UHGV virus genome: UHGV-0117250
DNA: 38,690 bases
Reading direction: 5' to 3' (one strand)
Source of the DNA: a virus
Shown here: in pieces, positions 3,569-34,773 of the stretch
Position numbering within the stretch: position 1 is the first letter of the stretch
Layout of the letters: every line of letters starts with the position of its first letter
Notes under the pieces: model-generated
The model's input: the letters and a program-made list of their open reading frames with translations, nothing else
Told to the model about the DNA's origin: nothing
Databases searched by the model: none
Translations under genes and position numbers: made by a program

Positions 3569-3647
3569 GTTACCGTTAAGGTAATAATTATGCGTATCTG
3601 GTTTGATGTCAATAGATATGAGTTAAAAAAATTACCTGTTAGGTAAT
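3569..3647. promoter_or_regulatory. leftward operator region (OL-like): two 17-bp dyad sites
   Basis: gTTACC-GTTAA-GGTAAt at 3569..3585 and the perfect dyad ATTACC-TGTTA-GGTAAT at 3631..3647, between the repressor terminator and the first leftward gene. Confidence 0.5.
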
Positions 3648-3656
3648 CTAACAGGC

Positions 3657-3683
3657 AATAAAAAAGCCGCCAGAAGGCGGCTT
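3657..3683 (-). terminator. rho-independent terminator after repressor gene
   Basis: On the minus strand: GC hairpin GCCGCC-TTCT-GGCGGC followed by a T-run, about 20 nt after the repressor stop at 3704. Confidence 0.6.
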
Positions 3684-3703
3684 ACTTACTGAAAAATATG
3701 ATT

Positions 3704-4288
3704 TTATTGTTTGTTTTTTTCGTTCTGGTTGATGACAAATTCAATGTAACTTTCGATCTTTGCTTTCTCGGTTTCGGGTAACAAAGCGTAGCGCGAGCGG
3801 TCATAGTTGATAGTCGCAGGGTCGTGCGGGTGAATCAGTAATTCATAGCCGTGACGCCCGAATGCGGATGCAACATTCTCCAGGGTGGAAATGGAAACGC
3901 TGACCTCATTGTTTAACAGGCGGCTGATTGTCACCTGGGCGACGCCGGATGCGCGGTGAAGTTTTCCCTGCGTTGAAAGGTCGCGGCTTTCGCTCATCCA
4001 GCGTTCCAGGTTGTGAGCCGCCAGCTGACCAATGTCGCTTGGTCCGACAGGCTGAAAACCTTCCTGAGAAAGCGAGCGATCGATATCAAGCCAGTTACGG
4101 GGTTTATTGGCGGCAGCTTCAATTTTTCGCGCAACCTGGTCGCCGATAACCTTCTTGCCAAGAGCCCAGCGGTTTACCAGATTTGCCTGAGTTCCAAGTT
4201 TTTCTGCCATCCGCGTCTGAACACCATTGAATTCACGGTCGATCAAGTCGTTGAGATTTTGCCTGCGGACGTCCTGGATACTTTTCAT
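3704..4288 (-). CDS. prophage repressor, double-HTH (XRE-type), no peptidase S24 domain
   Basis: 194 aa; two HTH-like segments (around QTRMAEKLGTQANLVNRW and VAQVTISRLLNNEVSVSISTLENVA); divergent from a cro-like gene with dyad operators between them; no Ser/Lys autocleavage-type C-terminus visible. Confidence 0.7.
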   Translation of the reverse strand: MKSIQDVRRQNLNDLIDREFNGVQTRMAEKLGTQANLVNRWALGKKVIGDQVARKIEAAANKPRNWLDIDRSLSQEGFQPVGPSDIGQLAAHNLERWMSESRDLSTQGKLHRASGVAQVTISRLLNNEVSVSISTLENVASAFGRHGYELLIHPHDPATINYDRSRYALLPETEKAKIESYIEFVINQNEKNKQ

Positions 4289-4342
4289 TTTCTGGAAAAT
4301 CGCCTCATATATGAATCAGTAGATGATTCAATTTAAAGCAAT

Positions 4343-4407
4343 ATTACCCAACAGGTAAATGCACCCCATAGGTAACTATCCTTGATTTTTGTTACCTTAT
4401 GGGTGAA
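4343..4407. promoter_or_regulatory. rightward/maintenance operator region (OR-like): three dyad sites
   Basis: ATTACC-CAACA-GGTAAA (4343..4359), GCACC-CCATA-GGTAA (4361..4375) and GTTACC-TTATG-GGTGAA (4391..4407) in the 155-bp divergent region between the repressor ATG (4288) and the cro-like ATG (4443). Confidence 0.55.
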
Positions 4408-4442
4408 TATTTATTATCTGAAATAAATATCAGGCAATAGCT

Positions 4443-4673
4443 ATGAGCGATAACGGACATTTCGATTTCAAAAAGCACTGGCTTGCACTTACTCCGGATG
4501 AGCGTGAAGCCTTCGCACAGGAAGCCGGAACGACGAGTCACTATATCCAGACTCACTTAACAGGTAAGCGCAAAATGCCAGGTAAAGTATTGATGAATGG
4601 GCTTTTTAAAGCCTGTAAAACAAGACAATGGCTGCGCTCAAAAGCAGAACTGGCATACTTCTTCTACTCATGA
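4443..4673 (+). CDS. Cro-like small HTH regulator
   Basis: 76 aa, divergent from the repressor across the operator region; HTH-like segment TTSHYIQTHLTG. Confidence 0.55.
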   Translation: MSDNGHFDFKKHWLALTPDEREAFAQEAGTTSHYIQTHLTGKRKMPGKVLMNGLFKACKTRQWLRSKAELAYFFYS

Positions 4674-4693
4674 TATCCAGCTACAACCCTCTG

Positions 4694-4719
4694 TAGACCG
4701 CCACCCGGCGGTCTTTTCA
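4694..4719 (+). terminator. rho-independent terminator (tR1-like) after cro-like gene
   Basis: Hairpin GACCGCC-ACCC-GGCGGTC followed by TTTTC. Confidence 0.6.
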
Positions 4720-4728
4720 TATCTATTC

Positions 4729-4744
4729 GCACCTTTAAGGTAAT
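4729..4744. promoter_or_regulatory. dyad-motif site upstream of next early gene
   Basis: GCACC-TTTAA-GGTAAT immediately after the terminator; same motif family as the OL/OR sites. Confidence 0.35.
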
Positions 4745-4823
4745 AAAAAACCAAATCTGGTTGATCTTTTTTTTGTGTCAGCACAAAATAACCGTAATCC
4801 CAATACTAATAACAGGGCTTACC

Positions 4824-5024
4824 ATGGAAATCATTACACGTATTGATGCCGCAAAGCGCGGACTTAAACGCTACTACACCGGAAAACCATGTAAGCACGG
4901 ACATGACAGTGAACGCTGGGTTTACAACGGACACTGTGTTGAGTGCACCATGGAATCAAACCGTCGCATCAGGGCAGAGATTAAGCAGATCATGATTAAT
5001 TCCTCCCCACAACATTCAAGCTGA
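4824..5024 (+). CDS. hypothetical Cys-rich (zinc-ribbon-like) protein, cII-position
   Basis: 66 aa from ATG 4824 (track start 4761 is TTG); CKHGH...CVEC pattern; sits between cro-like and the replication initiator. Confidence 0.4.
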   Translation: MEIITRIDAAKRGLKRYYTGKPCKHGHDSERWVYNGHCVECTMESNRRIRAEIKQIMINSSPQHSS

Positions 5025-5039
5025 TAGCGGAGATTAATC

Positions 5040-5855
5040 ATGAGCAGACATGCAACAGATTGGGCCTGGGAGACAGATCCAGGCAGCTCATCATTAAAGC
5101 TCATACTGCTCTCGATGGCTGACAGAGCCGATGAATATAACCTCTGCTACCCCAGCATAGAACGCCTCGTTAAAGACACTTGCCTGAATAAAAAAACCGT
5201 GCAGGCCGGGCTTATATCGCTCATGAAAATGGGGCTTATTTCAGATACCGGAGAGAGAAAGGGAGCGACAAAAAGAGTGCGGGTTTTCTCTCTTAATATA
5301 ACCAAAAAAGGGAACATTAAAGGCAACCTAGAAGGACGTAATGAACCCGAAAACGGTAATGTTCCCGAAAACGGGAATATACCCAAAAACGGGATGTTGA
5401 ATGATCCCAAAAACGGGATGTTGAATGATCCCAAAAACGGGATCCAGAACCAGTCATATAACCAGTCATTTAACCAAGAGAGGGAGAGCAGGACAAAAAC
5501 CGGGGATTCTGTGCCTCATGACCCAGGCGCAAACAACGCCGTGATGAATAACTTTGTTCCTCCTGGTGGGCTAGGGCAATTAGGCAAATTTGTCATGCAT
5601 GAACAATGGCAGCCATCAGATGACTTTCTTCGGAAAAGCTCATTGCAGGGGATCTACCTGGACAGTCTGCCAACGGCACAGGAACTTGCAGAATTCAGAA
5701 TTTACTGGATGGCTGAGGGTAAGGCATACCATCAGGCACAGTGGGAGCAGAAGCTGGCAAGGTGGCTGCAGATTAGCAGACAGAAGCAATCAACATTACC
5801 TGATAACAACGTTCCGCACTGGAACAGCCCTGAAGCGTGGGAGGATTTCTTGTGA
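5040..5855 (+). CDS. replication initiator, lambda O-like
   Basis: GGAG SD then ATG 5040; N-terminal HTH-like region; central repetitive peptide (NGNVPENGNIPKNGMLNDPKNGMLNDPKNG) encoded by DNA iterons; followed by a P-like gene with overlapping stop/start. Confidence 0.7.
   Translation: MSRHATDWAWETDPGSSSLKLILLSMADRADEYNLCYPSIERLVKDTCLNKKTVQAGLISLMKMGLISDTGERKGATKRVRVFSLNITKKGNIKGNLEGRNEPENGNVPENGNIPKNGMLNDPKNGMLNDPKNGIQNQSYNQSFNQERESRTKTGDSVPHDPGANNAVMNNFVPPGGLGQLGKFVMHEQWQPSDDFLRKSSLQGIYLDSLPTAQELAEFRIYWMAEGKAYHQAQWEQKLARWLQISRQKQSTLPDNNVPHWNSPEAWEDFL
5345..5445. repeat. origin-like iteron array (5 direct repeats) inside O-like gene
   Basis: CCC(G/A)AAAACGG(G/T)A repeated five times at 18/18/24/24-bp spacing, followed by a GATC and a short tandem AACCAGTCAT pair (5451..5470). 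Confidence 0.6.
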
Positions 5856-6637
5856 ACAACGTTTTTACCGCGATACAAAACCGTGACGGAGAAGCCCTTT
5901 CTCGCATGTCAGGTTATGAGCATCAGTACGTCAACAATGACAATGTGGTGAACATGTCAGCAGAGAGGCTTGTTGATGCCCTTTTCAAACAGCTGAAACA
6001 ACTGTTTCCGGCGGCAGTGGTAACCAACCTGAAGACGCCAGAGCAGGAAGTTGCTGCAAAACAGCAGTGGATTGCTGCGTTTGCCGAAGGGGGAATACGT
6101 ACCCGTGAACAGGTTTCTGCTGGTATGCGCCACGCCCGCGCCAGTGAATCTCCGTTCTGGCCGTCGCCAGGGCAATTCATCAAGTGGTGTAAAGACAGCA
6201 AGATGGTTCTTGGCGTCACCATTGACGATGTGATGGCGGAGTTTCACCGGTACAGCAAGGAAAAAAGTTTATATCCTGGTGGTCCAGAAAGATTCCCGTG
6301 GCGGCATCCGGTTATGTACTGGGTCGTATGTGATACACGCCGTGCAATGTATCAGCGCCAGCTTAGCGAGATTGAGGTTGAGAAACATGCGCGCAGGCTG
6401 CTCGATGATTGGGCGAAAAAGGTGGCTTCCGGACAGCAGATACCCGATCCGGTGATCAGCATACAGGCAAAGCCAGAACCCATGAGTACACCTCCGGACA
6501 CAGGGAGAGACGTTTACCATCCACCAGGGCGAAGTTTCGGGTGCATGCCTAACGCCGCCACCCTTGGGGGAATAACACCGGCTCAGTGGCTGATGGAGGA
6601 ATACAGGCGGGGAAAGGCGGCAGGATTTATCAAGTAA
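5852..6637 (+). CDS. replication protein P-like (helicase loader)
   Basis: Segment SPFWPSPGQFIKWC closely resembles lambda P (PFLPSPGQFVAWC) and the flanking region aligns. GTG at 5852 with GGGAGGA SD overlaps the O-like stop (GTGA); the track start at 5837 is also GTG. Confidence 0.75.
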   Translation: MNNVFTAIQNRDGEALSRMSGYEHQYVNNDNVVNMSAERLVDALFKQLKQLFPAAVVTNLKTPEQEVAAKQQWIAAFAEGGIRTREQVSAGMRHARASESPFWPSPGQFIKWCKDSKMVLGVTIDDVMAEFHRYSKEKSLYPGGPERFPWRHPVMYWVVCDTRRAMYQRQLSEIEVEKHARRLLDDWAKKVASGQQIPDPVISIQAKPEPMSTPPDTGRDVYHPPGRSFGCMPNAATLGGITPAQWLMEEYRRGKAAGFIK

Positions 6638-6673
6638 TACCAGCGCGATAGCGCATTTTTTTACGTCTCAACA

Positions 6674-6752
6674 ATTACCCATAAGGTAATAAAATATTCT
6701 AAACTCTATTGATTTCGTGTCTTATGTGGTTTTTAATTACCTTAGAGGTAAA
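6674..6752. promoter_or_regulatory. two dyad-motif sites upstream of DUF1064 operon
   Basis: ATTACC-CATAA-GGTAAT (6674..6690) and ATTACC-TTAGA-GGTAAA (6736..6752); the second ends 3 nt before the ATG at 6755. Confidence 0.4.
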
Positions 6753-6754
6753 TC

Positions 6755-7099
6755 ATGAGAAAACAGATACAGGCTCTTGGTCGACTCAAAACAGGCCAGA
6801 TGAACAAAACAGAATCTGCGTATTGCCAGCACCTTGAGCTGCGTAAACGTGCAGGGGAAATCGCCTGGTATCGATTCGAGGGTATCAAGCTGCGGTTAGC
6901 TGACAACACGTTCTATACGCCCGATTTTGCTGTGATGCTCGCCACCGGCGAGATGGAACTACACGAAGTGAAAGGTTTCTGGACCGACGACGCCAGGGTG
7001 AAAACCAAAGTCGCCGCAGATCAGTATCTGTTCCGAATCATCGGGGTAACGGTTAAACCAAAGAAAGCAGGTGGTGGGTGGAACATCGAAGAGTTCTGA
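6755..7099 (+). CDS. DUF1064-like phage protein (putative nuclease/resolvase-like)
   Basis: 114 aa; pattern ...KTESAYCQHLELRK...YRFEGIKLRL...YTPDF...HEVKG resembles DUF1064 phage proteins (from memory). Confidence 0.45.
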   Translation: MRKQIQALGRLKTGQMNKTESAYCQHLELRKRAGEIAWYRFEGIKLRLADNTFYTPDFAVMLATGEMELHEVKGFWTDDARVKTKVAADQYLFRIIGVTVKPKKAGGGWNIEEF

Positions 7100-7160
7100 A
7101 TCGACGATCTTTTTAGTTATCAATGTAATCAATAAGTTATGTGGATAAGCGAGGGTAAAG

Positions 7161-7700
7161 ATGGAAAGTAATATCAAAGGGTTAGTTACCGCCGGGCATG
7201 AGATGGCTTCGGAACTGAAAGCAGAATGTGGCGCCGTTGATATGCGTAGTGTGGCAAAGCTGATCAGCGATTTGGCAACGCAACTGGAAGTGCAACTGGT
7301 GCGTGCTAATGCGCTGGCCGAAGACCAACAGAAAGCGATTGAGTCAATTAAGCAGGCTGATTCGGCTGTTAAGTTGGCGCACGAGAAGTTTTCAGCACTG
7401 GCAGCGGAGAGTGCGGGGATGAAGAAGTTCTGCAAAGACGCTGCATTCGATGCCGATTACGAAGCAGAGCTAGGTATGGAGCGTGGTGGATTCAGTGATG
7501 CGCTTAACGAAATCAAAACCCCAGCCACCGATGCTTTTCTGGCTGAAGTACGGGCGCAGGGGGTGGATATGGCTCGTAACGCGATGATTGATTTTGTTGA
7601 TGGTGAAATTGGGCCAAACAAGAACGTTCCGGGGCTGATTAGAGGCGCAGAGATATGCGTAAGTATTGCTGAACAGCTTCGCAAAGGAGGCAACCAGTGA
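7161..7700 (+). CDS. hypothetical protein
   Basis: 179 aa, ATG at 7161; no recognisable motif; stop overlaps the next gene start. Confidence 0.5.
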   Translation: MESNIKGLVTAGHEMASELKAECGAVDMRSVAKLISDLATQLEVQLVRANALAEDQQKAIESIKQADSAVKLAHEKFSALAAESAGMKKFCKDAAFDADYEAELGMERGGFSDALNEIKTPATDAFLAEVRAQGVDMARNAMIDFVDGEIGPNKNVPGLIRGAEICVSIAEQLRKGGNQ

Positions 7701-8191
7701 CTGGATATGCAGCAATCCTCGACATGTGCTGTGGCAGTCGCATGTTCTGGTTCGATAAGAAGGACGACCGGGCGATATTTAGCGATATCAGAAAGGAAGA
7801 GCACACATTATGTGATGGACGACGGCTGATAATTAGCCCTGACATGATAGCAGATTTTCGTGCATTACCATTTGCAGACGCATCGTTTCCGGTTGTTGTA
7901 TTCGACCCTCCGCATCTTGAGCGTGTTGGTGATAACGCCTGGATGGGAAAGAAATATGGACGGCTGAATAAAGATACCTGGCGTGATGATTTGCGGCAGG
8001 GATTTAAAGAAGCCTTTCGTGTGTTGCGGCCATACGGCGTTCTGATTTTTAAATGGAATGAAACGCAAATACCTGTTCGCCAGATATTGGCACTGACCGA
8101 CAGAAAGCCTGTTATCGGTCAACGAACAGGAAAGGGTGACAAGACCCACTGGATTATTTTTATGAAGGAGGCGACCAGTGAGCAAAATTAA
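7697..8191 (+). CDS. SAM-dependent DNA methyltransferase (DPPH motif)
   Basis: GTG start at 7697 with AGGAGG SD at 6-nt spacing; VVVFDPPH matches motif IV (D/N-P-P-Y/F/H) of N6A/N4C DNA methyltransferases; short (164 aa), so target recognition is unclear. Confidence 0.6.
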   Translation: MTGYAAILDMCCGSRMFWFDKKDDRAIFSDIRKEEHTLCDGRRLIISPDMIADFRALPFADASFPVVVFDPPHLERVGDNAWMGKKYGRLNKDTWRDDLRQGFKEAFRVLRPYGVLIFKWNETQIPVRQILALTDRKPVIGQRTGKGDKTHWIIFMKEATSEQN

Positions 8192-8624
8192 CTATCAGGC
8201 ACTGCGTGAAGCGGCAGAGCAGGCAATGCATGACGACTGGGGATTTGATGCGGACCTTTTCCATAAGCTGGTAACACCATCGATTGTGCTGGCACTGCTG
8301 GATGAACGGGAAAGAAACCAGCAATACATCAAATCACGCGACCAGGAGAACGAGGATATTGCGCTAACGGTAGGGAAGCTGCGTGTTGAGCTTGAAGCAG
8401 CAAAATCAAAACTCAACGAGCAGCGTGAATATTACGAGGGAGTAATCGCGGATGGAAGTAAGCGCATAGCAGAACTGGAGGAGCGGGAAATACTGCTCCC
8501 GGAACGTAGCAGCATGCTTCATCGAACAGATTTTCACGAGGATTACCAAACGGTAATGGCATACAAAGTTTCTGAAGTCATCGCTGCAATCCGCGCTGCT
8601 GGTATTCGCATCAAAGGAGAGTGA
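8178..8624 (+). CDS. ead/Ea22-like family protein
   Basis: GTG start with GAAGGAGG SD; N-terminal INYQALREAAEQA...PSIVLALLDERE followed by a coiled-coil region, as in ead/Ea22-like prophage proteins. Confidence 0.55.
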   Translation: MSKINYQALREAAEQAMHDDWGFDADLFHKLVTPSIVLALLDERERNQQYIKSRDQENEDIALTVGKLRVELEAAKSKLNEQREYYEGVIADGSKRIAELEEREILLPERSSMLHRTDFHEDYQTVMAYKVSEVIAAIRAAGIRIKGE

Positions 8625-8625
8625 G

Positions 8626-9521: not shown

Positions 9522-9795
9522 CCTGCAACTAGCCGTTAAAGGTGAATACTTCGATGCCATAATTCGTGGAGAGAAAACGGAAGAGTATCGCCTGTGCAAT
9601 GACTACTGGAATAAACGCCTCGTTAATCGTAAGTATGACCGCCTGATTATCACAAAGGGATATCCGAAGCGCGACGATTCCAGCCGCAGAATTGACGTCC
9701 CGTATGACGGATATGAAATCAAGACAATCACACATCCGCACTTTGGCGATAAACCGGTAAAGGTGTACGCGATAAAGGTAAATATTGATGGCTAA
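9514..9795 (+). CDS. ASCH domain protein
   Basis: GTG start with GGAGG SD; LAVKGEYFDAIIRGEKTEEYR matches the ASCH (PUA-like) N-terminal signature. Confidence 0.55.
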   Translation: MANLQLAVKGEYFDAIIRGEKTEEYRLCNDYWNKRLVNRKYDRLIITKGYPKRDDSSRRIDVPYDGYEIKTITHPHFGDKPVKVYAIKVNIDG

Positions 9796-10126
9796 ATCAG
9801 CAGCAGAGCGCAAAGCCGCTCAGAGAGCCAGACAAGCTGCATCTGGTGTGCGTAAGCTGGAAATTGTGCTTGATGCTCAGGAAATTGAAATGCTTGATCG
9901 TAACTGTGCCGCGCGTCGCCCCGGGCGTGCGCCTTACGAATTTTGTGAGTATATAGCGTTACTGATCCGCCAGGATGATGCACGCGTGCGCGGGCGTATA
10001 AAATCGATTAGCAGAAAACGTTGCGGTAAGTGCGGCGAGAAAGTTCCCGTTAATTCATGCCCGTGTAATGGTGACTCGCAATGCTGGGTGACTAAAGGCT
10101 GGCATGAAACTAAATTAATAGTGTGA
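9788..10126 (+). CDS. hypothetical Cys-rich protein
   Basis: ATG at 9788 (track start 9785 is TTG); C-terminal CGKCGEK...CPCNGDSQC; last gene before the terminase operon; its stop lies inside a 12-bp palindrome. Confidence 0.45.
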   Translation: MAKSAAERKAAQRARQAASGVRKLEIVLDAQEIEMLDRNCAARRPGRAPYEFCEYIALLIRQDDARVRGRIKSISRKRCGKCGEKVPVNSCPCNGDSQCWVTKGWHETKLIV

Positions 10127-10173
10127 CATGTCACGAGTAGATTATGCATGATGAATTTGATGGGTTTTGAATA

Positions 10174-10201
10174 CTGCCGCCAACTATGGCGGCTTTATTT
10201 T
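10174..10201 (+). terminator. rho-independent terminator
   Basis: Hairpin GCCGCC-AACTAT-GGCGGC followed by TTTATTTT. Confidence 0.55.
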
Positions 10202-10211
10202 GCATGGTACT

Positions 10212-10228
10212 ATTACCACAACGGTAAC
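10212..10228. promoter_or_regulatory. dyad-motif site upstream of terminase genes
   Basis: ATTACC-ACAAC-GGTAAC, 17 nt upstream of the terminase small-subunit start. Confidence 0.35.
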
Positions 10229-10244
10229 AATTACCAGGGTGGTT

Positions 10245-10841
10245 ATGATGCCTGCTGAACCTAAAACATATAAACGCAAATCAACGCAATTTAAGCCACT
10301 AACCGCAATGCAGGAGGCTTATTGCCAGTCATACATCAAAACGCCTGAAAACCAGACTCAGGCAGCGATTAACGCAGGATTCTCCCCAAATACAGCGGCA
10401 GTTAAAGCCAGTGTCATGATGCGCGATGAACGCATTCAAAAACGGATTGCCGAGTTGATGGAGGAGCGCAACAAACGAATGCGCGTCAGTGCCGATTACG
10501 TTCTCATGCGCCTGGTGGAGATCGACCAGATGGACGTGATCGACATCCTCAACGACGATGGGAGCCTTAAGCCAATCCGCGAGTGGCCGAAAATCTGGCG
10601 CACTACGCTTAGTGGCTTTGATCTGTCATCGACCATCATGAACATGAACGAGGATTCGATAGAGACAATCCTCAAAAAAATTAAATGGCCTGACAAGGTG
10701 AAGAACCTCGAACTGATTGGTAAGCACGTCGACGTCAACGCGTTCAAAGAACGCCTGGATGTTAATGTGAATGTGACAATTGCTGATCGCATAGCGGCAG
10801 CCAGGAAGCGACTCAAAGAACGTCAGGATGGTAATCAGTGA
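10245..10841 (+). CDS. terminase small subunit
   Basis: ATG at 10245 within ORF 10167..10841; resembles small-terminase (Terminase_2-type) proteins (...QAAINAGFSPNTAAVKASVMMRDERIQKRIAEL...); directly precedes and overlaps the large subunit. Confidence 0.65.
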   Translation: MMPAEPKTYKRKSTQFKPLTAMQEAYCQSYIKTPENQTQAAINAGFSPNTAAVKASVMMRDERIQKRIAELMEERNKRMRVSADYVLMRLVEIDQMDVIDILNDDGSLKPIREWPKIWRTTLSGFDLSSTIMNMNEDSIETILKKIKWPDKVKNLELIGKHVDVNAFKERLDVNVNVTIADRIAAARKRLKERQDGNQ

Positions 10842-12313
10842 CAGATACAGCGTTATCTCCTGAAGAGCAGTTGATCGAGGATATTGCAGGGTTCACTCAC
10901 GATCCGCTTGGCTATGCCCTCTATGCGTTCCCGTGGGGGGAAGAGGGGACTGAACTGGCACATGCCACCGGCCCACGTCAGTGGCAGGCTGATGCGTTCC
11001 GAGAGATACGTGATCACCTGCAGAATCCAGAGACGCGCTATCAGCCGCTTATGCTGGCACGCGCTTCTGGTCACGGTATTGGTAAATCCGCATTCATCTC
11101 AATGCTGATCAACTGGGGCATGTCCACTTGCGAGGATTGTAAGGTCGTGGTGACCGCCAACACCGACAACCAGCTACGAACGAAGACCTGGCCGGAAATT
11201 ATCAAGTGGTCGAACCTTGCTATCACGAAAGACTGGTTTACCTGTACCGCTACCGCGATGTACAGCAATGATCCTGGGCACGACAAGCGGTGGCGGGCTG
11301 ACGCAATCCCCTGGTCTGAGCACAACACTGAGGCATTCGCCGGACTACACAACGAGCGCAAACGCATCATCGTGGTATTCGATGAAGCGTCGAACATTGC
11401 GGATCTGGTGTGGGAAGTTGCCGAAGGTGCGCTAACGGACGAAGACACTGAGATTATCTGGGTGGCGTTCGGAAACCCGACGCGTAACACCGGGCGTTTC
11501 CGCGAATGTTTCCGCAAATATAAACACCGCTGGAAAACTGCGCAGATTGACAGCCGGACGGTGGAAGGCACTAACAAACAGCAGTTGCAGAAATGGGTTG
11601 ATGACTACGGGGAAGACAGCGACTTCGTTAAAATCCGTGTGCGCGGCATATTCCCGGATGCATCTGAATTGCAGTTTATCCCTACCGGACTTACTGACGA
11701 GGCAATGAAACGGGTGGTCACCGCTGCGCAGGTTGCACATGCTCCGGTGATAATCGGCGTTGACCCGGCATACTCAGGCGTTGATGACGCTGTGATATAC
11801 CTGCGGCAGGGGCTGCACAGTAAGGTGCTGTGGACTGGCAACAAGACCACTGACGATCTGATTATGGCGAAGCGTATCGCTGACTTTGAAGACCAGTACC
11901 AGGCTGACGCAGTGTTCATCGACTTCGGTTACGGAACTGGTCTGAAGTCAATCGGTGACGGCTGGGGTCGTACATGGCAACTTGTTCCGTTCGGTGGCGC
12001 GTCTACTGACCCGCAGATGCTCAACAAGCGTGGGGAGATGTTCAACTCATGTAAGACATGGCTGAGGCTGGGCGGCATGCTGGATGACCAGGAAACTGCA
12101 GACGACCTGTCGGCGGCAGAGTACAAAGTTCGAGTGGACGGTAAAATCGTTATCGAACCGAAGGAAGATATCAAAGAGCGACTTGGGCGTTCGCCGGGTA
12201 AAGGCGATGCGCTGCTGCTGACGTTTGCTTTCCCGGTGTCGAAGCGCCTGCGACTTCCCGGGCAGCAGAACCAGCAAGGCAAGGCGCTTACCGAGTACGA
12301 TCCATATGCTTAG
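10838..12313 (+). CDS. terminase large subunit
   Basis: 491 aa; Walker-A-like ASGHGIGKS; acidic nuclease-type C-terminal region; position and size typical. Confidence 0.8.
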   Translation: MTDTALSPEEQLIEDIAGFTHDPLGYALYAFPWGEEGTELAHATGPRQWQADAFREIRDHLQNPETRYQPLMLARASGHGIGKSAFISMLINWGMSTCEDCKVVVTANTDNQLRTKTWPEIIKWSNLAITKDWFTCTATAMYSNDPGHDKRWRADAIPWSEHNTEAFAGLHNERKRIIVVFDEASNIADLVWEVAEGALTDEDTEIIWVAFGNPTRNTGRFRECFRKYKHRWKTAQIDSRTVEGTNKQQLQKWVDDYGEDSDFVKIRVRGIFPDASELQFIPTGLTDEAMKRVVTAAQVAHAPVIIGVDPAYSGVDDAVIYLRQGLHSKVLWTGNKTTDDLIMAKRIADFEDQYQADAVFIDFGYGTGLKSIGDGWGRTWQLVPFGGASTDPQMLNKRGEMFNSCKTWLRLGGMLDDQETADDLSAAEYKVRVDGKIVIEPKEDIKERLGRSPGKGDALLLTFAFPVSKRLRLPGQQNQQGKALTEYDPYA

Positions 12314-13128
12314 TCTTTATTTTTATCCTCGAAACCTGATAATCCAGATAGAACACCAAAGTTATTAAAAACGTCTGGCTTACCAGATTTTAATCCGGAT
12401 AAGTTGTGTTGCTCCAAAAAGTTGCTAATTGTTTGGCCGTTGCCAAGTGCAAGACTTTTTATTTGAGATTTTTCAGGGTATTTGAGTTTGTATTCGTCGA
12501 AATCATTTTGGAGGGTCTTATATGCCTCATTCATTCTTCCAAGAGTTTCCGATATCTCTTTTAATGAATGATTTAGAGCTGCTAACTGAGCACTGGCGGA
12601 TCTCAATTCGTCATCTTTAGCTTTCAACTCAGCAGTCAATTCCCCCATACTATTCTTTGATCGAATAATCTCTTCTTTCATCTCTTGGATGTCTTTTTCC
12701 GCGCCAGTCTTAACTTTGTCGTATGTAACATCTTTTTTAGCCAATAACCTCTGCAGTCTGGTTTCACGCTGGATTTTTCTTGCCTTCAGGTGATTTTCGA
12801 TTGAGTCATTATTATCAAGAGGCTTTGCTTGCCATACGTTAATGATATTGTTTACCCATGGTAATAGGCAGCAGATAGCAATTACAGATAAGCATGGATA
12901 AAACATAACAGTTTTCCATGTGCTGTTATCTGAGATATATGAAATTTTATCTATTATGTTTGATTTGCTAAAAAATAGATAAAGAATTGATTTCCAGTTG
13001 AAGGCGCACCAGGACATAACAAAAGCACCAAGCACAGGGTTTTTGGCTCGATTCACGGCAGTATTGGCAGTAGATAAAAACAGCTCTTTAAACGATTCAA
13101 ACATGCTAATTACCTTGAAGTTTTTCAT
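12310..13128 (-). CDS. moron: membrane-anchored coiled-coil protein (candidate superinfection-exclusion/abortive-infection factor)
   Basis: Antisense to the structural operon, markedly AT-rich; two hydrophobic segments (PVLGAFVMSWCAFNW; VMFYPCLSVIAICCLLPW) then a long coiled-coil-like C-terminal half; stop codon overlaps the terminase stop. ATG 13128 preferred; an alternative ATG at 13104 has an AAGGT SD. Confidence 0.55.
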   Translation of the reverse strand: MKNFKVISMFESFKELFLSTANTAVNRAKNPVLGAFVMSWCAFNWKSILYLFFSKSNIIDKISYISDNSTWKTVMFYPCLSVIAICCLLPWVNNIINVWQAKPLDNNDSIENHLKARKIQRETRLQRLLAKKDVTYDKVKTGAEKDIQEMKEEIIRSKNSMGELTAELKAKDDELRSASAQLAALNHSLKEISETLGRMNEAYKTLQNDFDEYKLKYPEKSQIKSLALGNGQTISNFLEQHNLSGLKSGKPDVFNNFGVLSGLSGFEDKNKD

Positions 13129-13131
13129 GAT

Positions 13132-13148
13132 TATACCTTTAAGGTAAT
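13132..13148. promoter_or_regulatory. dyad-motif site overlapping moron translation start
   Basis: TATACC-TTTAA-GGTAAT located 4 nt upstream of the moron ATG on the coding strand. Confidence 0.35.
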
Positions 13149-13163
13149 TTGCGGTCATCAAGC

Positions 13164-13748: not shown

Positions 13749-13765
13749 GTTACCTGAAAGGTAAT
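13749..13765. promoter_or_regulatory. dyad-motif site upstream of virion operon
   Basis: GTTACC-TGAAA-GGTAAT; shares the 15-mer ACCTGAAAGGTAATA with the site at 30359..30375. Confidence 0.35.
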
Positions 13766-13854
13766 AATTCACGCGTTAAATGTCAACCTTCTACGATAAA
13801 TAAATCATATGTGGTTAAATTGGTAATAATTTAATTGCGTACGGAGTCATTGAT

Positions 13855-30002: not shown

Positions 30003-30028
30003 AGGCCGCTCTAGCGGCCTTTTCTTTA
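30003..30028. terminator. bidirectional intrinsic terminator between convergent genes
   Basis: AGGCCGC-TCTA-GCGGCCT followed by TTTCTTT on the plus strand; the stop of the minus-strand gene lies in the T-run. Confidence 0.55.
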
Positions 30029-30283
30029 TGTGGTTTGTTTTCGTAATTGTTCGGCACAATAGTCGAGATGTGTTTGCAGATCCCGCATAGACATCTGTGA
30101 GCTGGTGACGTAGTTAATCAGTGCAGTCAGTTCGGCAAGTGGGCCATCGACATTAAATCCATCCTTATCGAGCTCCCGGAGTAATTTCATCAAGTGCGAT
30201 CCCTCCACCAGTGATCTGACGCCTCCCGGCGTGTGAATCCTTTCGGTAAATCCGTCTTCCAGTGGATAGTGATACTGCTGCAT
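30026..30283 (-). CDS. LexA-regulated small protein (candidate antirepressor)
   Basis: 85 aa from ATG 30283 with GGAG SD (track start 30301 is TTG); a near-consensus LexA box lies about 20 bp upstream. Confidence 0.5.
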   Translation of the reverse strand: MQQYHYPLEDGFTERIHTPGGVRSLVEGSHLMKLLRELDKDGFNVDGPLAELTALINYVTSSQMSMRDLQTHLDYCAEQLRKQTT

Positions 30284-30301: not shown

Positions 30302-30323
30302 TAACTGTATAAATATACAGTAT
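30302..30323. promoter_or_regulatory. LexA (SOS) box
   Basis: AACTGTATAAATATACAGTA: CTGT-N8-ACAG with an AT-rich spacer, a near-perfect match to the E. coli LexA consensus TACTGTATATATATACAGTA. Confidence 0.7.
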
Positions 30324-30358: not shown

Positions 30359-30375
30359 ATCACCTGAAAGGTAAT
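30359..30375. promoter_or_regulatory. dyad-motif site between LexA-box gene and tailspike
   Basis: TCACC-TGAAA-GGTAAT; shares the 15-mer ACCTGAAAGGTAATA with the site at 13749..13765. Confidence 0.35.
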
Positions 30376-30478
30376 ATCTGTTCGTATTTATGGGTTGTCT
30401 ATCCATATATGGTTTTTCAGGTAATAGAATAACCGGATATGCGGCGCAACGGGTGCTGCGACTATCTGGAGATTTAAC

Positions 30479-32773: not shown

Positions 32774-32870
32774 TACTTGAACGATTCAAACTAACTTTTG
32801 CTTAAATGATGAAATCCACAGTCTAAATGTATAACATGCCTCGTATCGTAACTGTGTGAGGCATTGAGGC

Positions 32871-34730
32871 ATGGACTTCAGGAAGGATATCAATGGAGTC
32901 AGGGCTATAGCAGTTCTTGCTGTAGTCCTGTTCCACTTCAACAGAGGATGGGTCCCGAGTGGATTTGTTGGCGTAGATGTATTCTTTGTAATTTCTGGTT
33001 TTTTGATGACGTCAATAATATTTGGCGGATTAGAAGGAAATAAATTTTCTCTGTGGGGCTTTTATAAAGCACGAGCCAGAAGGATAGTGCCTGCGCTTGC
33101 CGTTATGCTAATTTGCGTAATGGTATACGGATGGTACAACATGTACACTCCTGAATTTAAGACATTGGCGAAGCACGCTGCGTCAAGCCTTCTATTTGTT
33201 TCAAATATCGTCTATTGGAAGGAGTCAAGCTACTTTGCTCCTGGTGCAGAAGAGAAGTGGTTACTTCATACTTGGTCTCTATCTGTAGAATGGCAATTCT
33301 ATATTATATATCCTTTAGCCATTTATATTATCAGAAAGGCTTTCAGTTTAAAGGTATCTAGGATATTAATTCTGATTGCAGGCCTATTAAGTTTAGCACT
33401 TAGCATTTATGCATCTAGGATTTTAGTTAGCTCATCATATTTCTTGCTTCCAACAAGGGCATGGGAGATGATTGCTGGCGGCGTGGTTTATCTTTTCCCG
33501 ACATCAATATTTAAACGAAAACCTTTCCCATATATCGGGATTGCTACCATATTAGTATCCTGCTTTATTTTTAGCGAGGAATCGTACTGGCCTAGCTACA
33601 ATGCGCTGCTGCCTATCATCGGCACGATGATCATATTGTGGTCGTGTTCTGATAACATTATCTTAGATTCATCTTTTGCGCAAAAGATTGGGTTGTATTC
33701 ATATTCAATTTATTTGTGGCACTGGCCGATCTATCTATATATATATAATACATATGGTGGTGTTTCTATATTAACAACGCTCATTGGAATTGTTGCGTCA
33801 GTGGCGATGGGTATGTTGTCATTTAAATATATAGAAAGTGTTTTCAAAAGTAGAGGCGGCGTTAAAAAGGAGTTTCTGTACTTTGCATCATTAGCTTTAG
33901 CTGTTGGTATATATATTTCTAATGGCGCTAACACTGATATGCGAAGTATCACAAAAACTACCGGTAATGAAACTGTGGTGCATTACGATGGATATCGGTT
34001 TGATAATAATGGGATGTGGGATAAATGTAACAGCAGTGAAAAACTGGATCATATCGATAAATCATGTGTCGATACTGATAAAAGGGGAGGTGTCTTCTTA
34101 TGGGGAGACTCTCACGCGGGAGCACTTTCTTTAGGGATAAGATCACTTCTAAAAGATGGCGTTCCATTCTATCAACTTGCTGCTTCAAGTTGTAAACCGA
34201 GTCTCCATAAATTCCCTGGAGTTATAAGTGCCACAATTGGATGTAATCTATCCAATGAAAAAGCCATTGAAGATATAAATATTGTTAAACCTGATGTTGT
34301 GGTATTAGCTCAGAGATTCCAGCATGAAGAAACAAACTGGCAAAGCATCGCTGAGAAAATACACTCACTGGGTGTTAAGAAAGTTATAGTCCTTGGTCCT
34401 GTTCCTCAGTGGAAAGGGAGCCTGCCGCTAATTGTTGCGAAAAACTACAATCCTAATGATATTTACATTGATGAACGATTTTTGGATAAACAGATTGTCG
34501 CGACAAATAACAAAATGAAGACGATATCAAAAGACAATGAAGGTTATGATTTTGTCGACATACTTGATCACTTATGCACACATGAAGGTTCAGAACTGAA
34601 GTGTAGGGCAAGGGTAGATAGTGGCTTTACGCTTATGTCTATGGATTACGGTCACCCTACTGATGAAGGGTCACTGTTCATCGGCAAACACATAATTAAA
34701 AGCCACCTCCCAACAAGCATAACCAAGTAA
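32871..34730 (+). CDS. O-antigen acetyltransferase (acyltransferase-3 membrane domain + SGNH domain)
   Basis: 619 aa; multi-TM N-terminal half typical of acyltransferase family 3 (OafA/Oac-like); C-terminal domain with GDSH-type motif (FLWGDSHAG); AT-rich; directly downstream of the tailspike. Confidence 0.75.
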   Translation: MDFRKDINGVRAIAVLAVVLFHFNRGWVPSGFVGVDVFFVISGFLMTSIIFGGLEGNKFSLWGFYKARARRIVPALAVMLICVMVYGWYNMYTPEFKTLAKHAASSLLFVSNIVYWKESSYFAPGAEEKWLLHTWSLSVEWQFYIIYPLAIYIIRKAFSLKVSRILILIAGLLSLALSIYASRILVSSSYFLLPTRAWEMIAGGVVYLFPTSIFKRKPFPYIGIATILVSCFIFSEESYWPSYNALLPIIGTMIILWSCSDNIILDSSFAQKIGLYSYSIYLWHWPIYLYIYNTYGGVSILTTLIGIVASVAMGMLSFKYIESVFKSRGGVKKEFLYFASLALAVGIYISNGANTDMRSITKTTGNETVVHYDGYRFDNNGMWDKCNSSEKLDHIDKSCVDTDKRGGVFLWGDSHAGALSLGIRSLLKDGVPFYQLAASSCKPSLHKFPGVISATIGCNLSNEKAIEDINIVKPDVVVLAQRFQHEETNWQSIAEKIHSLGVKKVIVLGPVPQWKGSLPLIVAKNYNPNDIYIDERFLDKQIVATNNKMKTISKDNEGYDFVDILDHLCTHEGSELKCRARVDSGFTLMSMDYGHPTDEGSLFIGKHIIKSHLPTSITK

Positions 34731-34732
34731 CA

Positions 34733-34758
34733 GAAGCCCACTCCGGTGGGCTTTTTAA
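34733..34758 (+). terminator. rho-independent terminator after acetyltransferase
   Basis: AGCCCAC-TCCG-GTGGGCT followed by TTTTTAAT. Confidence 0.6.
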
Positions 34759-34773
34759 TACCCGTAAGGTAAT
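34757..34773. promoter_or_regulatory. dyad-motif site upstream of lysis cassette
   Basis: ATACC-CGTAA-GGTAAT immediately after the terminator. Confidence 0.35.

What the first reader, a model, noticed from the sequence alone, without database searches (positions are those of the whole stretch)
3569..34773. Thirteen copies of a 17-bp dyad motif TTACC-N5-GGTAA(T) at essentially every operon boundary
Read by eye, intergenic regions carry near-palindromic sites (A/G)TTACC-N5-GGTAA(T/A): two before the leftward operon, three between repressor and cro-like genes, one after the cro terminator, two before the DUF1064 operon, and one each before terminase, the antisense moron, the virion operon, the tailspike, and the lysis cassette. 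The clustered sites in the immunity region look like repressor operators, but dispersal to late and moron promoters would make this a prophage-wide regulon or a module-boundary linker. Two distant sites share an identical 15-mer (ACCTGAAAGGTAATA), and several right half-sites continue as GGTAATAAT, which resembles a -10 element.
Basis: seen in the sequence. Interest (0 to 1): 0.65.

Follow-up and report, generated by a model that had tools for sequence, protein, structure and literature searches.

The report
Prophage-wide repressor operators, already known
The repeated TTACC-N5-GGTAA dyads are real and are almost certainly the binding sites of this phiV10/epsilon15-type prophage's own repressor, placed at nearly every operon start so that one protein silences the whole phage; the same sites are already annotated in phage epsilon15, so this is a solid but ordinary finding.

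Summary
TTACC-N5-GGTAA occurs 7 times exactly (0 expected) and 12 times with ≤1 mismatch (0.8 expected). It is the window's top dyad in an unbiased enumeration. All 12 sites lie in the 8% of the window that is non-coding (P≈9e-14).

The window is a phiV10/epsilon15-type (Uetakevirus) prophage. Its repressor is 100% identical to phiV10 gp40 and is a full-length homolog of SPC32H Rep (PDB 5D50). An Ant antirepressor gene with a LexA box is also present. The epsilon15 GenBank record already annotates the same dyad as dispersed 'repressor' binding sites before terminase, portal, tailspike and the early operons.

The motif, its positions and its spacings (62-bp pairs bracketing early promoters) are conserved in seven genomes from four host genera. 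Across 63 natural haplotypes, half-site positions are rarely polymorphic (7%) while the N5 spacers vary freely (50%).

The best explanation is a phage-wide Rep operator regulon. The 'module-boundary linker' reading is not supported.

Novelty is low. A second palindrome (CCATATATGG), phased with the operators at most promoters, remains unexplained.

The parts
3569..3585 (.). PL promoter-proximal Rep operator, GTTACCGTTAAGGTAAT. It starts inside the -10 and covers +1 of the leftward early promoter.
   Evidence: Exact dyad. The PL-like promoter (-) has -35 TTGACA at 3612-3607 and -10 AATTAT at 3589-3584, scoring 10/12. The architecture is conserved in 7 genomes.
3631..3647 (.). PL distal Rep operator, ATTACCTGTTAGGTAAT, 62 bp (centre to centre) from the proximal one and just upstream of the -35.
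   Evidence: spacing is 62 bp in 6 of 7 genomes and 63 bp in one.
3704..4288 (-). rep, the immunity repressor (194 aa). It has an N-terminal HTH DNA-binding domain and a second HTH_3-like middle domain. No peptidase S24 domain was found.
   Evidence: PDB 5D50 (SPC32H Rep) matches at E=4e-42 over residues 1-190. Pfam finds HTH_3 only. It is 100% identical to phiV10 gp40, and the N-terminal block ...NLVNRW... is invariant in 7 genomes.
4343..4359 (.). Switch-region operator 1 (ATTACCCAACAGGTAAA), between rep and the cro-like gene.
4360..4376 (.). Switch-region operator 2 (TGCACCCCATAGGTAAC). Its left half is degenerate and it abuts operator 1 (17-bp spacing).
   Evidence: 2 mismatches in the window. 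The orthologous site is a perfect dyad in epsilon15 and SPC32H.
4391..4407 (.). Switch-region operator 3 (GTTACCTTATGGGTGAA). It lies between the conserved -35 TTGATT (4382-4387) and the -10 of the rightward PR-like promoter.
   Evidence: promoter-like match 4389-4417; conserved in 7 genomes.
4443..4673 (+). cro-like small regulator (76 aa). It is a possible second ligand of these or neighbouring sites.
   Evidence: phrog_35 'transcriptional repressor', E=5.6e-13. No Pfam, PDB or NCBIfam match.
4728..4744 (.). Operator after the cro terminator and before the replication operon (CGCACCTTTAAGGTAAT). The left half is degenerate in all relatives.
   Evidence: orthologous sites in phiV10, Tyrion, Kp BUCT711, epsilon15 and SPC32H.
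6674..6690 (.). Distal operator of the DUF1064-operon promoter (ATTACCCATAAGGTAAT).
6736..6752 (.). Proximal operator of the DUF1064-operon promoter (ATTACCTTAGAGGTAAA), 62 bp from the distal one. It begins inside the -10 (TTTAAT) and ends 2 nt before the ATG.
   Evidence: -35 TTGATT, 17-nt spacer, conserved in 7 genomes.
10212..10246 (.). Two operators 18 bp apart (ATTACCACAACGGTAAC at 10212-10228 and ATTACCAGGGTGGTTAT at 10230-10246), immediately before the terminase small-subunit ATG (10247). The second overlaps the ribosome-binding site.
   Evidence: epsilon15 annotates the first as a repressor site at 12-27.
13132..13148 (.). Operator (TATACCTTTAAGGTAAT) overlapping the -10 TATAAT of a strong leftward promoter that drives ORF 12310..13128/13104 (phrog_4780, function unknown).
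   Evidence: promoter (-) 13158-13130, ATGACC/17/TATAAT, 10/12. The 17-mer is identical to the int-upstream site of phiV10, PAS61 and SPC32H.
13749..13765 (.). Single operator upstream of the gp3/portal virion operon (GTTACCTGAAAGGTAAT).
   Evidence: The orthologous epsilon15 site 2931-2947 is annotated 'repressor'. Conserved in 7 genomes.
30359..30375 (.). Single operator in the divergent ant / tailspike intergenic region (ATCACCTGAAAGGTAAT).
   Evidence: The orthologous epsilon15 site 19895-19911 is annotated 'repressor'.
34757..34773 (.). Single operator after the acetylase terminator and upstream of the lysis cassette (AATACCCGTAAGGTAAT).
   Evidence: orthologous sites in 6 genomes.
30026..30283 (-). 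ant, the antirepressor (85 aa) that is expected to inactivate Rep.
   Evidence: 88% identical to SPC32H Ant, whose gene is annotated 'ant' in KC911856; phrog_450 and phrog_1760 'anti-repressor'.
30303..30322 (.). LexA (SOS) box AACTGTATAAATATACAGTA just upstream of ant.
   Evidence: Read directly from the sequence. The CTGT-N8-ACAG core is conserved in six of the seven aligned genomes; Kp BUCT711 reads ACAT in the second arm. Assignment as a LexA box rests on the known consensus CTGT-N8-ACAG.
13805..13814 (.). Second conserved palindrome (CCATATATGG type; here TCATATGTGG), 52 bp downstream of the portal operator. Further copies are at 30403-30412, 34804-34813 and 4751-4760, with half-copies near 6721 and 4305.
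   Evidence: Function unknown. Listed because it is phased with the operators.

Best explanation
The 14 dyads are operators for the prophage's own immunity repressor Rep (3704..4288, minus strand), a tetrameric HTH protein of the SPC32H/epsilon15 type. Together they form a phage-wide regulon in which one repressor directly controls almost every transcription unit.

Each 17-bp site has two 5-bp half-sites (TTACC and GGTAA) whose centres are 10 bp apart, so they lie on one face of the helix, around an AT-rich spacer of free sequence. This is the expected target of a pair of HTH domains.

The sites fall into four architectural classes.
1. Early promoters (PL and the DUF1064 operon). Two operators exactly 62 bp apart bracket a sigma70 promoter. 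The proximal operator covers the -10/+1 region and would occlude RNA polymerase. I infer that the distal operator is bridged to it by the second DNA-binding pair of the same Rep tetramer.
2. The rep/cro switch. Three operators with 17 and 31 bp spacing lie between the divergent genes. The third sits between the -35 and -10 of the rightward promoter.
3. Terminase. Two operators 18 bp apart sit over the ribosome-binding site and the promoter region.
4. Portal, tailspike, lysis and replication operons. A single operator lies upstream of the promoter region, usually just after the previous operon's terminator. There Rep may block activation, loop to other operators, or stop read-through.

Induction is expected to work as in SPC32H: DNA damage removes LexA from the box in front of ant, and Ant breaks the Rep tetramer so that it leaves all operators at once.

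Shown here: the motif, its statistics, its placement, its conservation and the selection on its half-sites; also the homology of Rep and Ant. Inferred: that Rep is the ligand, the looping, and the mode of action at the late operons.
For: Statistics and placement.
- 7 exact copies against 0 expected; 12 against 0.8 at ≤1 mismatch.
- It is the top dyad in an unbiased enumeration.
- 12 of 12 sites are intergenic, P=8.7e-14, and eight of the nine intergenic gaps ≥100 bp in the phage part are occupied.

Identity of the element.
- The window is 97-98% identical to phiV10-type phages.
- The epsilon15 GenBank record annotates seven 'protein_bind / repressor / lysogeny' features: three before the leftward operon and one each before terminase, portal, tailspike and the RuvC operon. 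These are the same TTACC-N5-GGTAA dyad.

The ligand.
- Rep is a full-length homolog of SPC32H Rep, PDB 5D50, E=4e-42.
- It is 100% identical to phiV10 gp40. Its N-terminal DNA-binding block is invariant in seven genomes even where the rest of the protein falls to about 35% identity. That matches the fact that all seven genomes share the same half-site.
- Published work describes SPC32H Rep as a tetramer that binds palindromic DNA sites with two DNA-binding pairs, and that is dismantled by Ant (PMC9638917; PMC9986798).
- Overexpression of the identical repressor in phage ZX5 lowers holin and endolysin transcripts by more than 99.9% (PMC9782041).

Architecture.
- The two best promoter-like matches in 3300-14000 both touch a site.
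- The 62-bp pairs, the 17+30/31-bp triplet and the 18-20-bp terminase pair are conserved in phages of E. coli, Salmonella, Enterobacter and Klebsiella.

Selection.
- In 63 distinct natural haplotypes, half-site columns are polymorphic at 4 of 60 positions (two of these in an already degenerate half-site). N5 spacer columns are polymorphic at 15 of 30, and other intergenic columns at 64 of 332. Fisher P=0.005.
- In six diverged genomes, 63 distinct spacers occur among 87 sites, and the spacers are 75% A+T.

Induction module and the exception.
- Ant is 88% identical to SPC32H Ant and is preceded by a LexA box.
- The lysogenic-conversion acetylase is the only gene start in the phage part preceded by a sizeable gap (97 bp) without a site.
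Against: - No binding experiment is available for this phage. I could not read the primary papers (Kropinski 2007; Kim & Ryu 2013; Kim et al. 2016), so I do not know whether the epsilon15 site annotations are experimental or predicted.
- At the portal, tailspike and lysis operons the operator does not overlap a recognisable sigma70 promoter. It lies roughly 60-80 bp upstream of the presumed start site, so simple promoter occlusion cannot be the mechanism there.
- A 62-bp loop is very tight for a single tetramer.
- All seven genomes share the same motif, so there is no covariation between the recognition helix and the half-site to tie the motif to Rep rather than to another conserved phage protein.
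- The cro-like protein may bind the same sites.
Confidence: 0.85

Rival explanations
1. The single sites at the late and replication operons act mainly as roadblocks. Rep bound just downstream of the preceding terminator stops read-through transcription from entering the next operon in the lysogen, in the manner of mycobacteriophage L5 'stoperators', and does not block initiation.
For: Sites 4728, 6674, 10212 and 34757 each lie within about 25 bp after a terminator-like hairpin. No good sigma70 promoter overlaps the portal, tailspike or lysis sites. The lysis site directly follows the acetylase gene, which is co-oriented and presumably expressed in the lysogen.
Against: The sites are palindromic, not oriented. 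None with ≤1 mismatch lies inside an operon. In phiV10, epsilon15 and SPC32H the conversion genes upstream of the lysis cassette are on the opposite strand, yet the site is kept. At PL, PR, the DUF1064 promoter and the 13158-13130 promoter the operators clearly overlap core promoter elements. This rival would still have Rep as the ligand, so it refines the main explanation and does not replace it.
Confidence: 0.15
2. The primary ligand is another conserved phage regulator, such as the cro-like protein (4443..4673) or the gp55-like regulator (9785..10126), and not Rep. For example, a lytic-phase factor might activate or time all operons.
For: Both proteins are conserved in the genus and fall in 'transcription regulation' PHROGs. 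The late-operon sites sit upstream of the promoters, a position typical of activators. There is no covariation evidence tying the motif to Rep.
Against: Operators at PL and the DUF1064 promoter cover -10/+1, which is a repressor position. The densest cluster lies between rep and cro, as for immunity operators. The epsilon15 annotation assigns the sites to the repressor. SPC32H Rep is reported to bind palindromic sites as a tetramer with two DNA-binding pairs, which fits paired operators. A Cro that shares the repressor's operators would be normal and would not displace Rep as a ligand.
Confidence: 0.07
3. The dyads are module-boundary 'linker' sequences: short conserved stretches that promote recombination between mosaic phage modules, with no regulatory role.
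For: 18% of homology breakpoints between the window and seven relatives fall within 40 bp of a site, against 2.4% for random positions. Homology to several relatives resumes exactly at sites 13750 and 34758.
Against: Conditioned on being intergenic, breakpoints are no closer to sites than random intergenic positions (0.42 vs 0.36). A recombination linker would not need a spaced dyad with free N5 spacers, selection on exactly two 5-bp half-sites, fixed 62-bp pairing around promoters, or overlap with -10/+1 elements.
Confidence: 0.04
4. The sites are bound by a host regulator that recognises a similar palindrome. One candidate is an XRE-type antitoxin such as MqsA, whose reported site is ACCT-N2-4-AGGT. 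That site is recalled from memory and was not tested.
For: Several sites contain ACCT-N3-AGGT (for example 3632, 4729, 6737, 13133, 13750, 30360). TACCT/gap 3 is among the next most frequent dyads in the window.
Against: The invariant positions are TTACC/GGTAA, not ACCT/AGGT. Position -2 is T in only 7 of 14 sites. The motif is conserved in phages of four host genera together with the phage's own Rep DNA-binding domain.
Confidence: 0.02

Closest known systems
Repressor-binding sites annotated in Salmonella phage epsilon15 (GenBank AY150271.2; Kropinski et al. 2007, paper not readable here)
   Same: The dyad is identical (ATTACC-N5-GGTAAT). The dispersed placement is the same: before terminase, the gp3/portal operon, tailspike, the leftward operon and the second early-right operon. 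The genus and gene order are the same.
   Different: The record lists 7 sites. A scan finds 15 in epsilon15 and 14 here, including the three switch-region sites and the lysis site that the record does not annotate. The window's Rep is only 43% identical overall to the epsilon15 repressor. The phiV10 and PAS61 records carry no operator annotation.
Rep-Ant lysis/lysogeny switch of Salmonella phage SPC32H (Kim & Ryu 2013; Kim et al. 2016; PDB 5D50, 5D4Z)
   Same: Rep is a full-length homolog (E=4e-42) and Ant is 88% identical. ant occupies the same slot between the virion operon and the tailspike gene and has a LexA box. The operator motif and spacings are the same in the SPC32H genome.
   Different: Rep is 42% identical overall (54% in the N-terminal domain, 35% in the rest), so Ant-Rep specificity could differ. 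The published work, as far as I could see from citing papers, concerns protein structure and induction and does not provide a genome-wide operator map. A 2023 paper states that the structural mechanism of repression is not extensively characterised.
Phage P1 C1 repressor with many operators dispersed over the genome (from general knowledge, not tested here)
   Same: One immunity repressor controls many separate operons through operators scattered around the genome. It is inactivated by an antirepressor and not by RecA-stimulated cleavage.
   Different: P1 operators are asymmetric 17-bp sites. C1 is unrelated in sequence, and P1 is a plasmid prophage. Here the sites are symmetric dyads and occur in fixed 62-bp pairs at early promoters.
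Mycobacteriophage L5 gp71 'stoperators' (from general knowledge, not tested here)
   Same: The binding sites of the immunity repressor are dispersed genome-wide, well beyond the immunity region.
   Different: Stoperators are asymmetric 13-bp sites. They act in an orientation-dependent way, lie within operons and block elongation. Here the sites are palindromic, lie only at operon starts, and several overlap core promoters.
Lambda-type CI/Cro switch with tripartite OL and OR
   Same: The repressor and cro-like genes are divergent with three operators between them, and there are further operators at the leftward promoter.
   Different: Operators are not confined to OL and OR. The repressor has no S24 autopeptidase domain, and induction is via a LexA-controlled antirepressor. 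Operator pairs lie 62 bp apart, not adjacent.

Membership tests
Uetakevirus (epsilon15/SPC32H-type) Rep operators | 17-bp dyad ATTACC-N5-GGTAAT, identical to the annotated epsilon15 repressor-binding sites | tested here: met
   The epsilon15 protein_bind features coincide with TTACC-N5-GGTAA matches. The same dyad is the top dyad in the window and in 7 relatives.
Uetakevirus (epsilon15/SPC32H-type) Rep operators | A cognate Rep-family repressor is encoded next to the densest site cluster | tested here: met
   3704..4288 (-) matches PDB 5D50 at E=4e-42 over its full length. It is 100% identical to phiV10 gp40, and its N-terminal domain is conserved across the genus.
Uetakevirus (epsilon15/SPC32H-type) Rep operators | Sites occupy orthologous positions: PL pair, rep/cro triplet, second early-right operon pair, terminase, portal, tailspike, lysis | tested here: met
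   Stacked alignments and spacings in 7 genomes.
Uetakevirus (epsilon15/SPC32H-type) Rep operators | A LexA-controlled Ant antirepressor is present | tested here: met
   ORF 30026..30283 (-) is 88% identical to SPC32H Ant. A CTGT-N8-ACAG box lies at 30305-30320.
Uetakevirus (epsilon15/SPC32H-type) Rep operators | Rep physically binds the sites and represses the adjacent promoters | not testable with these tools
   Only indirect support is available: citing papers describe tetrameric Rep binding palindromic sites, and overexpression of the identical repressor silences lysis genes in ZX5.
Lambda-type CI/Cro operators | Operators are confined to OL and OR in the immunity region | tested here: not met
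   Eight of the 14 sites lie outside the immunity region, at 6674-34773.
Lambda-type CI/Cro operators | The repressor carries a RecA-stimulated S24 autopeptidase domain | tested here: not met
   Pfam finds only HTH-type families in Rep.
L5-type stoperators | Asymmetric sites oriented with transcription and located within operons | tested here: not met
   The sites are symmetric dyads. All sites with ≤1 mismatch are at operon starts in intergenic DNA.
Mosaic boundary / linker sequences of temperate phages | Recombination junctions coincide with the element more often than with neighbouring intergenic DNA | tested here: not met
   22 of 53 intergenic breakpoints lie within 40 bp of a site, against 0.36 expected for random intergenic positions.

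The most novel reading that the evidence does not exclude
Every promoter of this phage group may be built from two phased elements: a Rep operator and a second palindrome (CCATATATGG type). The second palindrome sits at fixed offsets from the operator: 19 bp at early promoters, and 40, 43 and 52 bp at the tailspike, lysis and portal operons. On this reading a tetrameric, p53-like looping repressor and a second, unidentified factor (possibly the cro-like or gp55-like protein) jointly set the temporal programme. The exact 62-bp operator pairs would be wrapped by one tetramer, and the single upstream operators at late promoters would work by long-range looping or by blocking the box-binding factor. 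I found no description of the second box or of the 62-bp rule in the papers I could read.
Probability: 0.25. Interest if true: 0.5.

Novelty: already known. Interest (0 to 1): 0.25.

Why it matters
The result shows that a very common E. coli prophage type is silenced by one antirepressor-controlled repressor acting directly at nearly every operon, not only at an immunity region. Rep is 100% identical in at least 80 viral contigs.

That has practical uses. It helps predict which prophage genes are off in the lysogen: the 12310..13128 gene is predicted to be repressed, and the O-antigen acetylase is not. It also helps in engineering phiV10-type reporter phages and in interpreting SOS-driven induction.

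The principle and the motif are already on record for epsilon15 and SPC32H, so the gain is a complete site map and a description of the architecture, not a new mechanism.

Tried and rejected
Papers I could not retrieve. The primary papers are not held: Kropinski 2007 (DOI, PMC2698709, PMID), Kim & Ryu 2013 (PMC3807360) and Kim et al. 2016 (PMC4983836, DOI). Full-text searches for the motif string and for Uetakevirus operators found nothing relevant.

Covariation test. I searched viral contigs with Rep, hoping for homologs with a different recognition helix. All 80 loci returned encode a 100% identical Rep, so that test was not possible. I used the loci for a polymorphism test instead. I ran no further search on this, because the verdict would not change.

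Recombination-linker idea. Tested and rejected after conditioning on intergenic location.

Extra weak operators inside genes. The 2-mismatch excess is marginal (P=0.017 against codon shuffling), and I do not claim it.

Other DNA-binding candidates. The cro-like and gp55-like proteins have no PDB, Pfam or NCBIfam match, so no ligand could be assigned to the second palindrome.

Late promoters. I tried to assign sigma70 promoters at the terminase, portal, tailspike and lysis sites. No convincing -35/-10 pair overlaps the operators there.

A technical failure.

Full report

Yes. TTACCNNNNNGGTAA occurs 7 times exactly, against 0.00 expected from dinucleotide-preserving shuffles. It occurs 12 times with ≤1 mismatch against 0.80 expected, and 36 times with ≤2 mismatches against 10.6 expected.

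TTACC with a 5-nt gap is the single top dyad with 7 copies. The maximum for any dyad in 200 third-order Markov simulations was 4.

The finding's coordinates, 3569 and 34773, are exactly the first and last base of the first and last 17-mer. There is a 14th site at 10230-10246, 18 bp after the terminase site.

I built a gene map from the ORF list and from the phiV10 and PAS61 annotations. Against that map, all 12 sites with ≤1 mismatch lie in the 8.2% of the window that is non-coding (binomial P=8.7e-14). Eight of the nine intergenic gaps ≥100 bp in the phage part carry at least one site; the exception is the gap after Rz that leads to the attachment core.

The shared 15-mer ACCTGAAAGGTAATA at 13750 and 30360 is correct. 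The excess of 2-mismatch matches inside genes is weak: 22 observed against 13.6±3.6 after codon shuffling, P=0.017. I do not build on it.

**2. What is the element?**

The window is 97-98% identical to phiV10-type temperate podophages of the genus Uetakevirus, including vB_EcoP_PAS61, phiv142-3 and phiV10. It is an integrated copy. The published attachment core ATTGAGTGGGAATGATT (PMC9782041) occurs once, at 36786-36802. Homology to all relatives stops there, so the last 1.9 kb of the window is host flank.

The repressor gene 3704..4288 (-) encodes a protein 100% identical to phiV10 gp40. It is homologous over its full length to the Rep repressor of Salmonella phage SPC32H (PDB 5D50, E=4e-42).

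ORF 30026..30283 (-) is 88% identical to the SPC32H antirepressor Ant and sits in the same slot between the virion operon and the tailspike gene. It is preceded by AACTGTATAAATATACAGTA at 30303-30322, which matches the LexA-box consensus CTGT-N8-ACAG. The complete Rep/Ant/LexA switch described for SPC32H is therefore present.

**3. Has the motif been described?**

Yes, within the genus. The epsilon15 GenBank record (AY150271.2) carries seven 'protein_bind' features labelled repressor/lysogeny. They lie before terminase (12-27), before the gp3/portal operon (2931-2947), before tailspike (19895-19911), three before the leftward operon, and one before the RuvC operon. These are TTACC-N5-GGTAA dyads.

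The dispersal that made the finding look unusual is thus already annotated. The phiV10 and PAS61 records have no such features. The primary papers could not be read, so I cannot say whether the epsilon15 sites were tested or only predicted.

Citing papers describe SPC32H Rep as a tetramer that binds palindromic sites through two pairs of N-terminal domains. Each pair is drawn from different dimers. Ant splits the tetramer (PMC9638917). The tetramerisation domain is p53-like and is linked to DNA looping, with the two domain pairs about 100 Å apart. [quoted passage not shown] In phage ZX5, which has the identical repressor, overexpressing it lowers holin and endolysin transcripts by more than 99.9% (PMC9782041).

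**4. Comparative evidence**

In the window and in seven relatives, TTACC/gap 5 is the top dyad of the genome, with 11-18 sites at ≤1 mismatch. The relatives are phiV10, PAS61, epsilon15, SPC32H, Enterobacter phages Tyrion and BUCT554, and Klebsiella phage BUCT711.

Positions and spacings are conserved:
- a pair exactly 62 bp apart at the leftward early promoter (63 bp in one genome);
- a second 62-bp pair at the DUF1064/RuvC operon;
- a triplet spaced 17 and 30-31 bp between rep and cro;
- a pair 18-20 bp apart at the terminase gene;
- single sites before the portal, tailspike, lysis and replication operons and before int.

The Rep N-terminal domain keeps an invariant block (…Q.R.AE……NLVNRW..G.K..G…AR.IE…) in all of these genomes, while the rest of the protein drops to about 35% identity. 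This fits one shared half-site specificity. It also means there is no covariation signal within the genus.

**5. Selection on the half-sites**

A search of viral contigs returned 80 loci whose Rep is 100% identical. That makes them a population sample. Among 63 distinct haplotypes of the region 3540-4800, polymorphic columns were:
- 4 of 60 half-site positions (6.7%), two of them in the already degenerate left half of site 4729;
- 15 of 30 N5 spacer positions (50%);
- 64 of 332 other intergenic positions (19%).

Fisher P=0.005 for half-sites against the rest of the intergenic DNA.

Across six diverged genomes, 87 sites carry 63 different spacers, and the spacers are 75% A+T in a 51% A+T genome. 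The two half-site centres are 10 bp apart, which is one helical turn. This is the signature of a protein dimer reading two half-sites on one face of the DNA.

**6. Architecture and likely mechanism**

*Early promoters.* At PL the scan finds TTGACA-17-AATTAT on the minus strand (3612-3584, 10/12). The proximal operator starts within the -10 and covers +1. The distal operator lies just upstream of the -35, next to a T-tract. The DUF1064 promoter has the same design mirrored: TTGATT-17-TTTAAT, with the proximal operator ending 2 nt before the ATG. Both designs are conserved in seven genomes. I infer occlusion of RNA polymerase by the proximal operator. I also infer bridging of the 62-bp pair by the two DNA-binding units of one tetramer. 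That second inference is consistent with the literature on the Rep tetramer but is unproven, and a 62-bp loop is tight.

*The switch.* The third operator lies between a conserved -35 (TTGATT, 4382-4387) and the -10 of the rightward promoter.

*The 12310 gene.* Site 13132-13148 overlaps the -10 of ATGACC-17-TATAAT (10/12), which drives ORF 12310..13128. This ORF belongs to phrog_4780, of unknown function. The profile match begins at residue 9, which favours the second ATG at 13104.

*The exception.* The O-antigen acetylase gene (32871..34730) is a lysogenic-conversion function. It is the only phage gene start preceded by a sizeable gap (97 bp) without a site. That is what a repressor regulon predicts.

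*Late operons.* At the portal, tailspike and lysis operons no good sigma70 promoter overlaps the operator. The operator sits 40-52 bp upstream of a second conserved box (see section 8). This places it roughly 60-80 bp upstream of any plausible start site, similar to the distal operators of the early promoters. How Rep acts there is open. It could loop to other operators, interfere with an activator, or act as a roadblock after the preceding terminator.

**7. Rivals**

*Recombination linker.* Homology breakpoints against seven relatives are enriched near sites: 18% fall within 40 bp, against 2.4% for random positions. This only reflects both features being intergenic. Among intergenic breakpoints 42% are within 40 bp of a site, against 36% for random intergenic positions. 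A linker would also not explain the half-site selection, the free spacers or the promoter overlap.

*Another phage regulator as the ligand.* This cannot be excluded computationally, but several points argue against it: the repressor-type positions at early promoters, the cluster between rep and cro, the epsilon15 annotation, and the match between paired operators and a tetramer with two binding units.

*A host factor.* Some sites contain ACCT-N3-AGGT, which I recall as the MqsA palindrome (from memory, not tested). The invariant bases are TTACC/GGTAA, however.

**8. Noticed on the way: a second, unexplained dyad**

A palindrome of the CCATATATGG(TT) type is phased with the operators in all seven genomes.
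- It lies 19 bp from the post-cro operator.
- It lies 19 bp from the proximal operators of PL and the DUF1064 promoter. There it sits inside the promoter spacer and is only partly conserved.
- It lies 40, 43 and 52 bp downstream of the tailspike, lysis and portal operators respectively.
- It lies about 41 bp from operator 1 on the rep side.

At the three late operons it is followed after 9 nt by a conserved -10-like hexamer. Two of these hexamers (GGTAATAAT and GGTAATAGAAT) contain a Rep half-site.

In the window alone the count is not significant: 21 hits at ≤2 mismatches against 14±4.8 expected. The case rests on conserved position.

I could not assign a ligand. The cro-like and gp55-like proteins have no informative homologs.

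**9. Verdict**

The linker alternative is not supported.

The same motif with the same dispersal is already annotated in epsilon15, and the Rep/Ant switch is characterised in SPC32H. I therefore file the finding as already known.

The added value here is the following:
- a complete 14-site map for this prophage;
- the conserved 62-bp pairing;
- the polymorphism evidence;
- the prediction that the 12310 gene is repressed while the acetylase is not;
- the unexplained second palindrome.

Noticed in passing
window 13805-13814, 30403-30412, 34804-34813, 4751-4760; weaker copies near 6721-6731 and 4305-4314: A second conserved palindrome, CCATATATGG(TT), sits at fixed offsets from the Rep operators (19 bp; 40, 43 and 52 bp) in all seven Uetakevirus genomes. 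At the portal, tailspike and lysis operons it is followed 9 nt later by a conserved -10-like hexamer, and there is no -35. It may be a late-promoter element or the site of an unidentified regulator.
   Followed up: partly
window 30026-30283 (-) and 30303-30322: An Ant antirepressor homolog (88% identical to SPC32H Ant) is preceded by a near-consensus LexA box, AACTGTATAAATATACAGTA. Induction is therefore probably driven by SOS through an antirepressor, not by repressor cleavage.
   Followed up: yes
window 36786-36802 and 36803-38690: The published phiV10/epsilon15 attachment core ATTGAGTGGGAATGATT marks the right end of the prophage. The remaining 1.9 kb is flanking DNA with a DUF5384 gene (36895..37434, -) and a glycine-zipper/TraT-like lipoprotein gene (37450..37968, -). 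The window starts inside the prophage (adenine methylase), so int and its operator-like site are not in the window.
   Followed up: partly
window 32774-32870: The 97-bp gap before the O-antigen acetylase gene (32871..34730) is the only sizeable gap before a phage gene start that has no Rep site. This is consistent with a lysogenic-conversion gene that stays on in the lysogen.
   Followed up: partly
window 12310-13128 (-): The gene between terminase and the portal operon (phrog_4780, function unknown, weak coiled-coil-like matches) is driven by a near-consensus promoter whose TATAAT lies inside a Rep operator. The 17-mer (ATTACCTTAAAGGTATA) is identical to the site upstream of int in phiV10, PAS61 and SPC32H, although the flanks are unrelated. 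This slot holds a different cargo gene in each relative.
   Followed up: partly
window 10167-10250: The phiV10 record starts the terminase small subunit upstream of the two operators (a TTG start, equivalent to 10167 here). In epsilon15, SPC32H and Tyrion the gene starts right after the second operator. The likely true start here is the ATG at 10247, with the second operator over the ribosome-binding site.
   Followed up: partly
window 5390-5409 and 5414-5433: Two identical 20-bp hairpin-forming units, 24 bp apart, lie inside the DnaT-like replication gene (5040..5855). They may be origin iterons.
   Followed up: no
loci L008-L087 (IMG/VR contigs): At least 80 viral contigs encode a Rep 100% identical to the window's (226 confirmed relatives in all). 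This immunity type is very widespread in E. coli prophages.
   Followed up: partly
window 13823-13831 and 30421-30431: The presumed -10 regions of the portal and tailspike late promoters (GGTAATAAT, GGTAATAGAAT) contain a lone Rep half-site, GGTAAT, conserved in all seven genomes.
   Followed up: no
window 693-992 (-), 1102-1350 (-), 9785-10126 (+): Three further small regulator-like genes (PerC-like, AlpA-like, and the phrog_536 'transcriptional regulator' at the end of the early-right operon) have unknown targets. The last sits in the position of a late-gene regulator.
   Followed up: no
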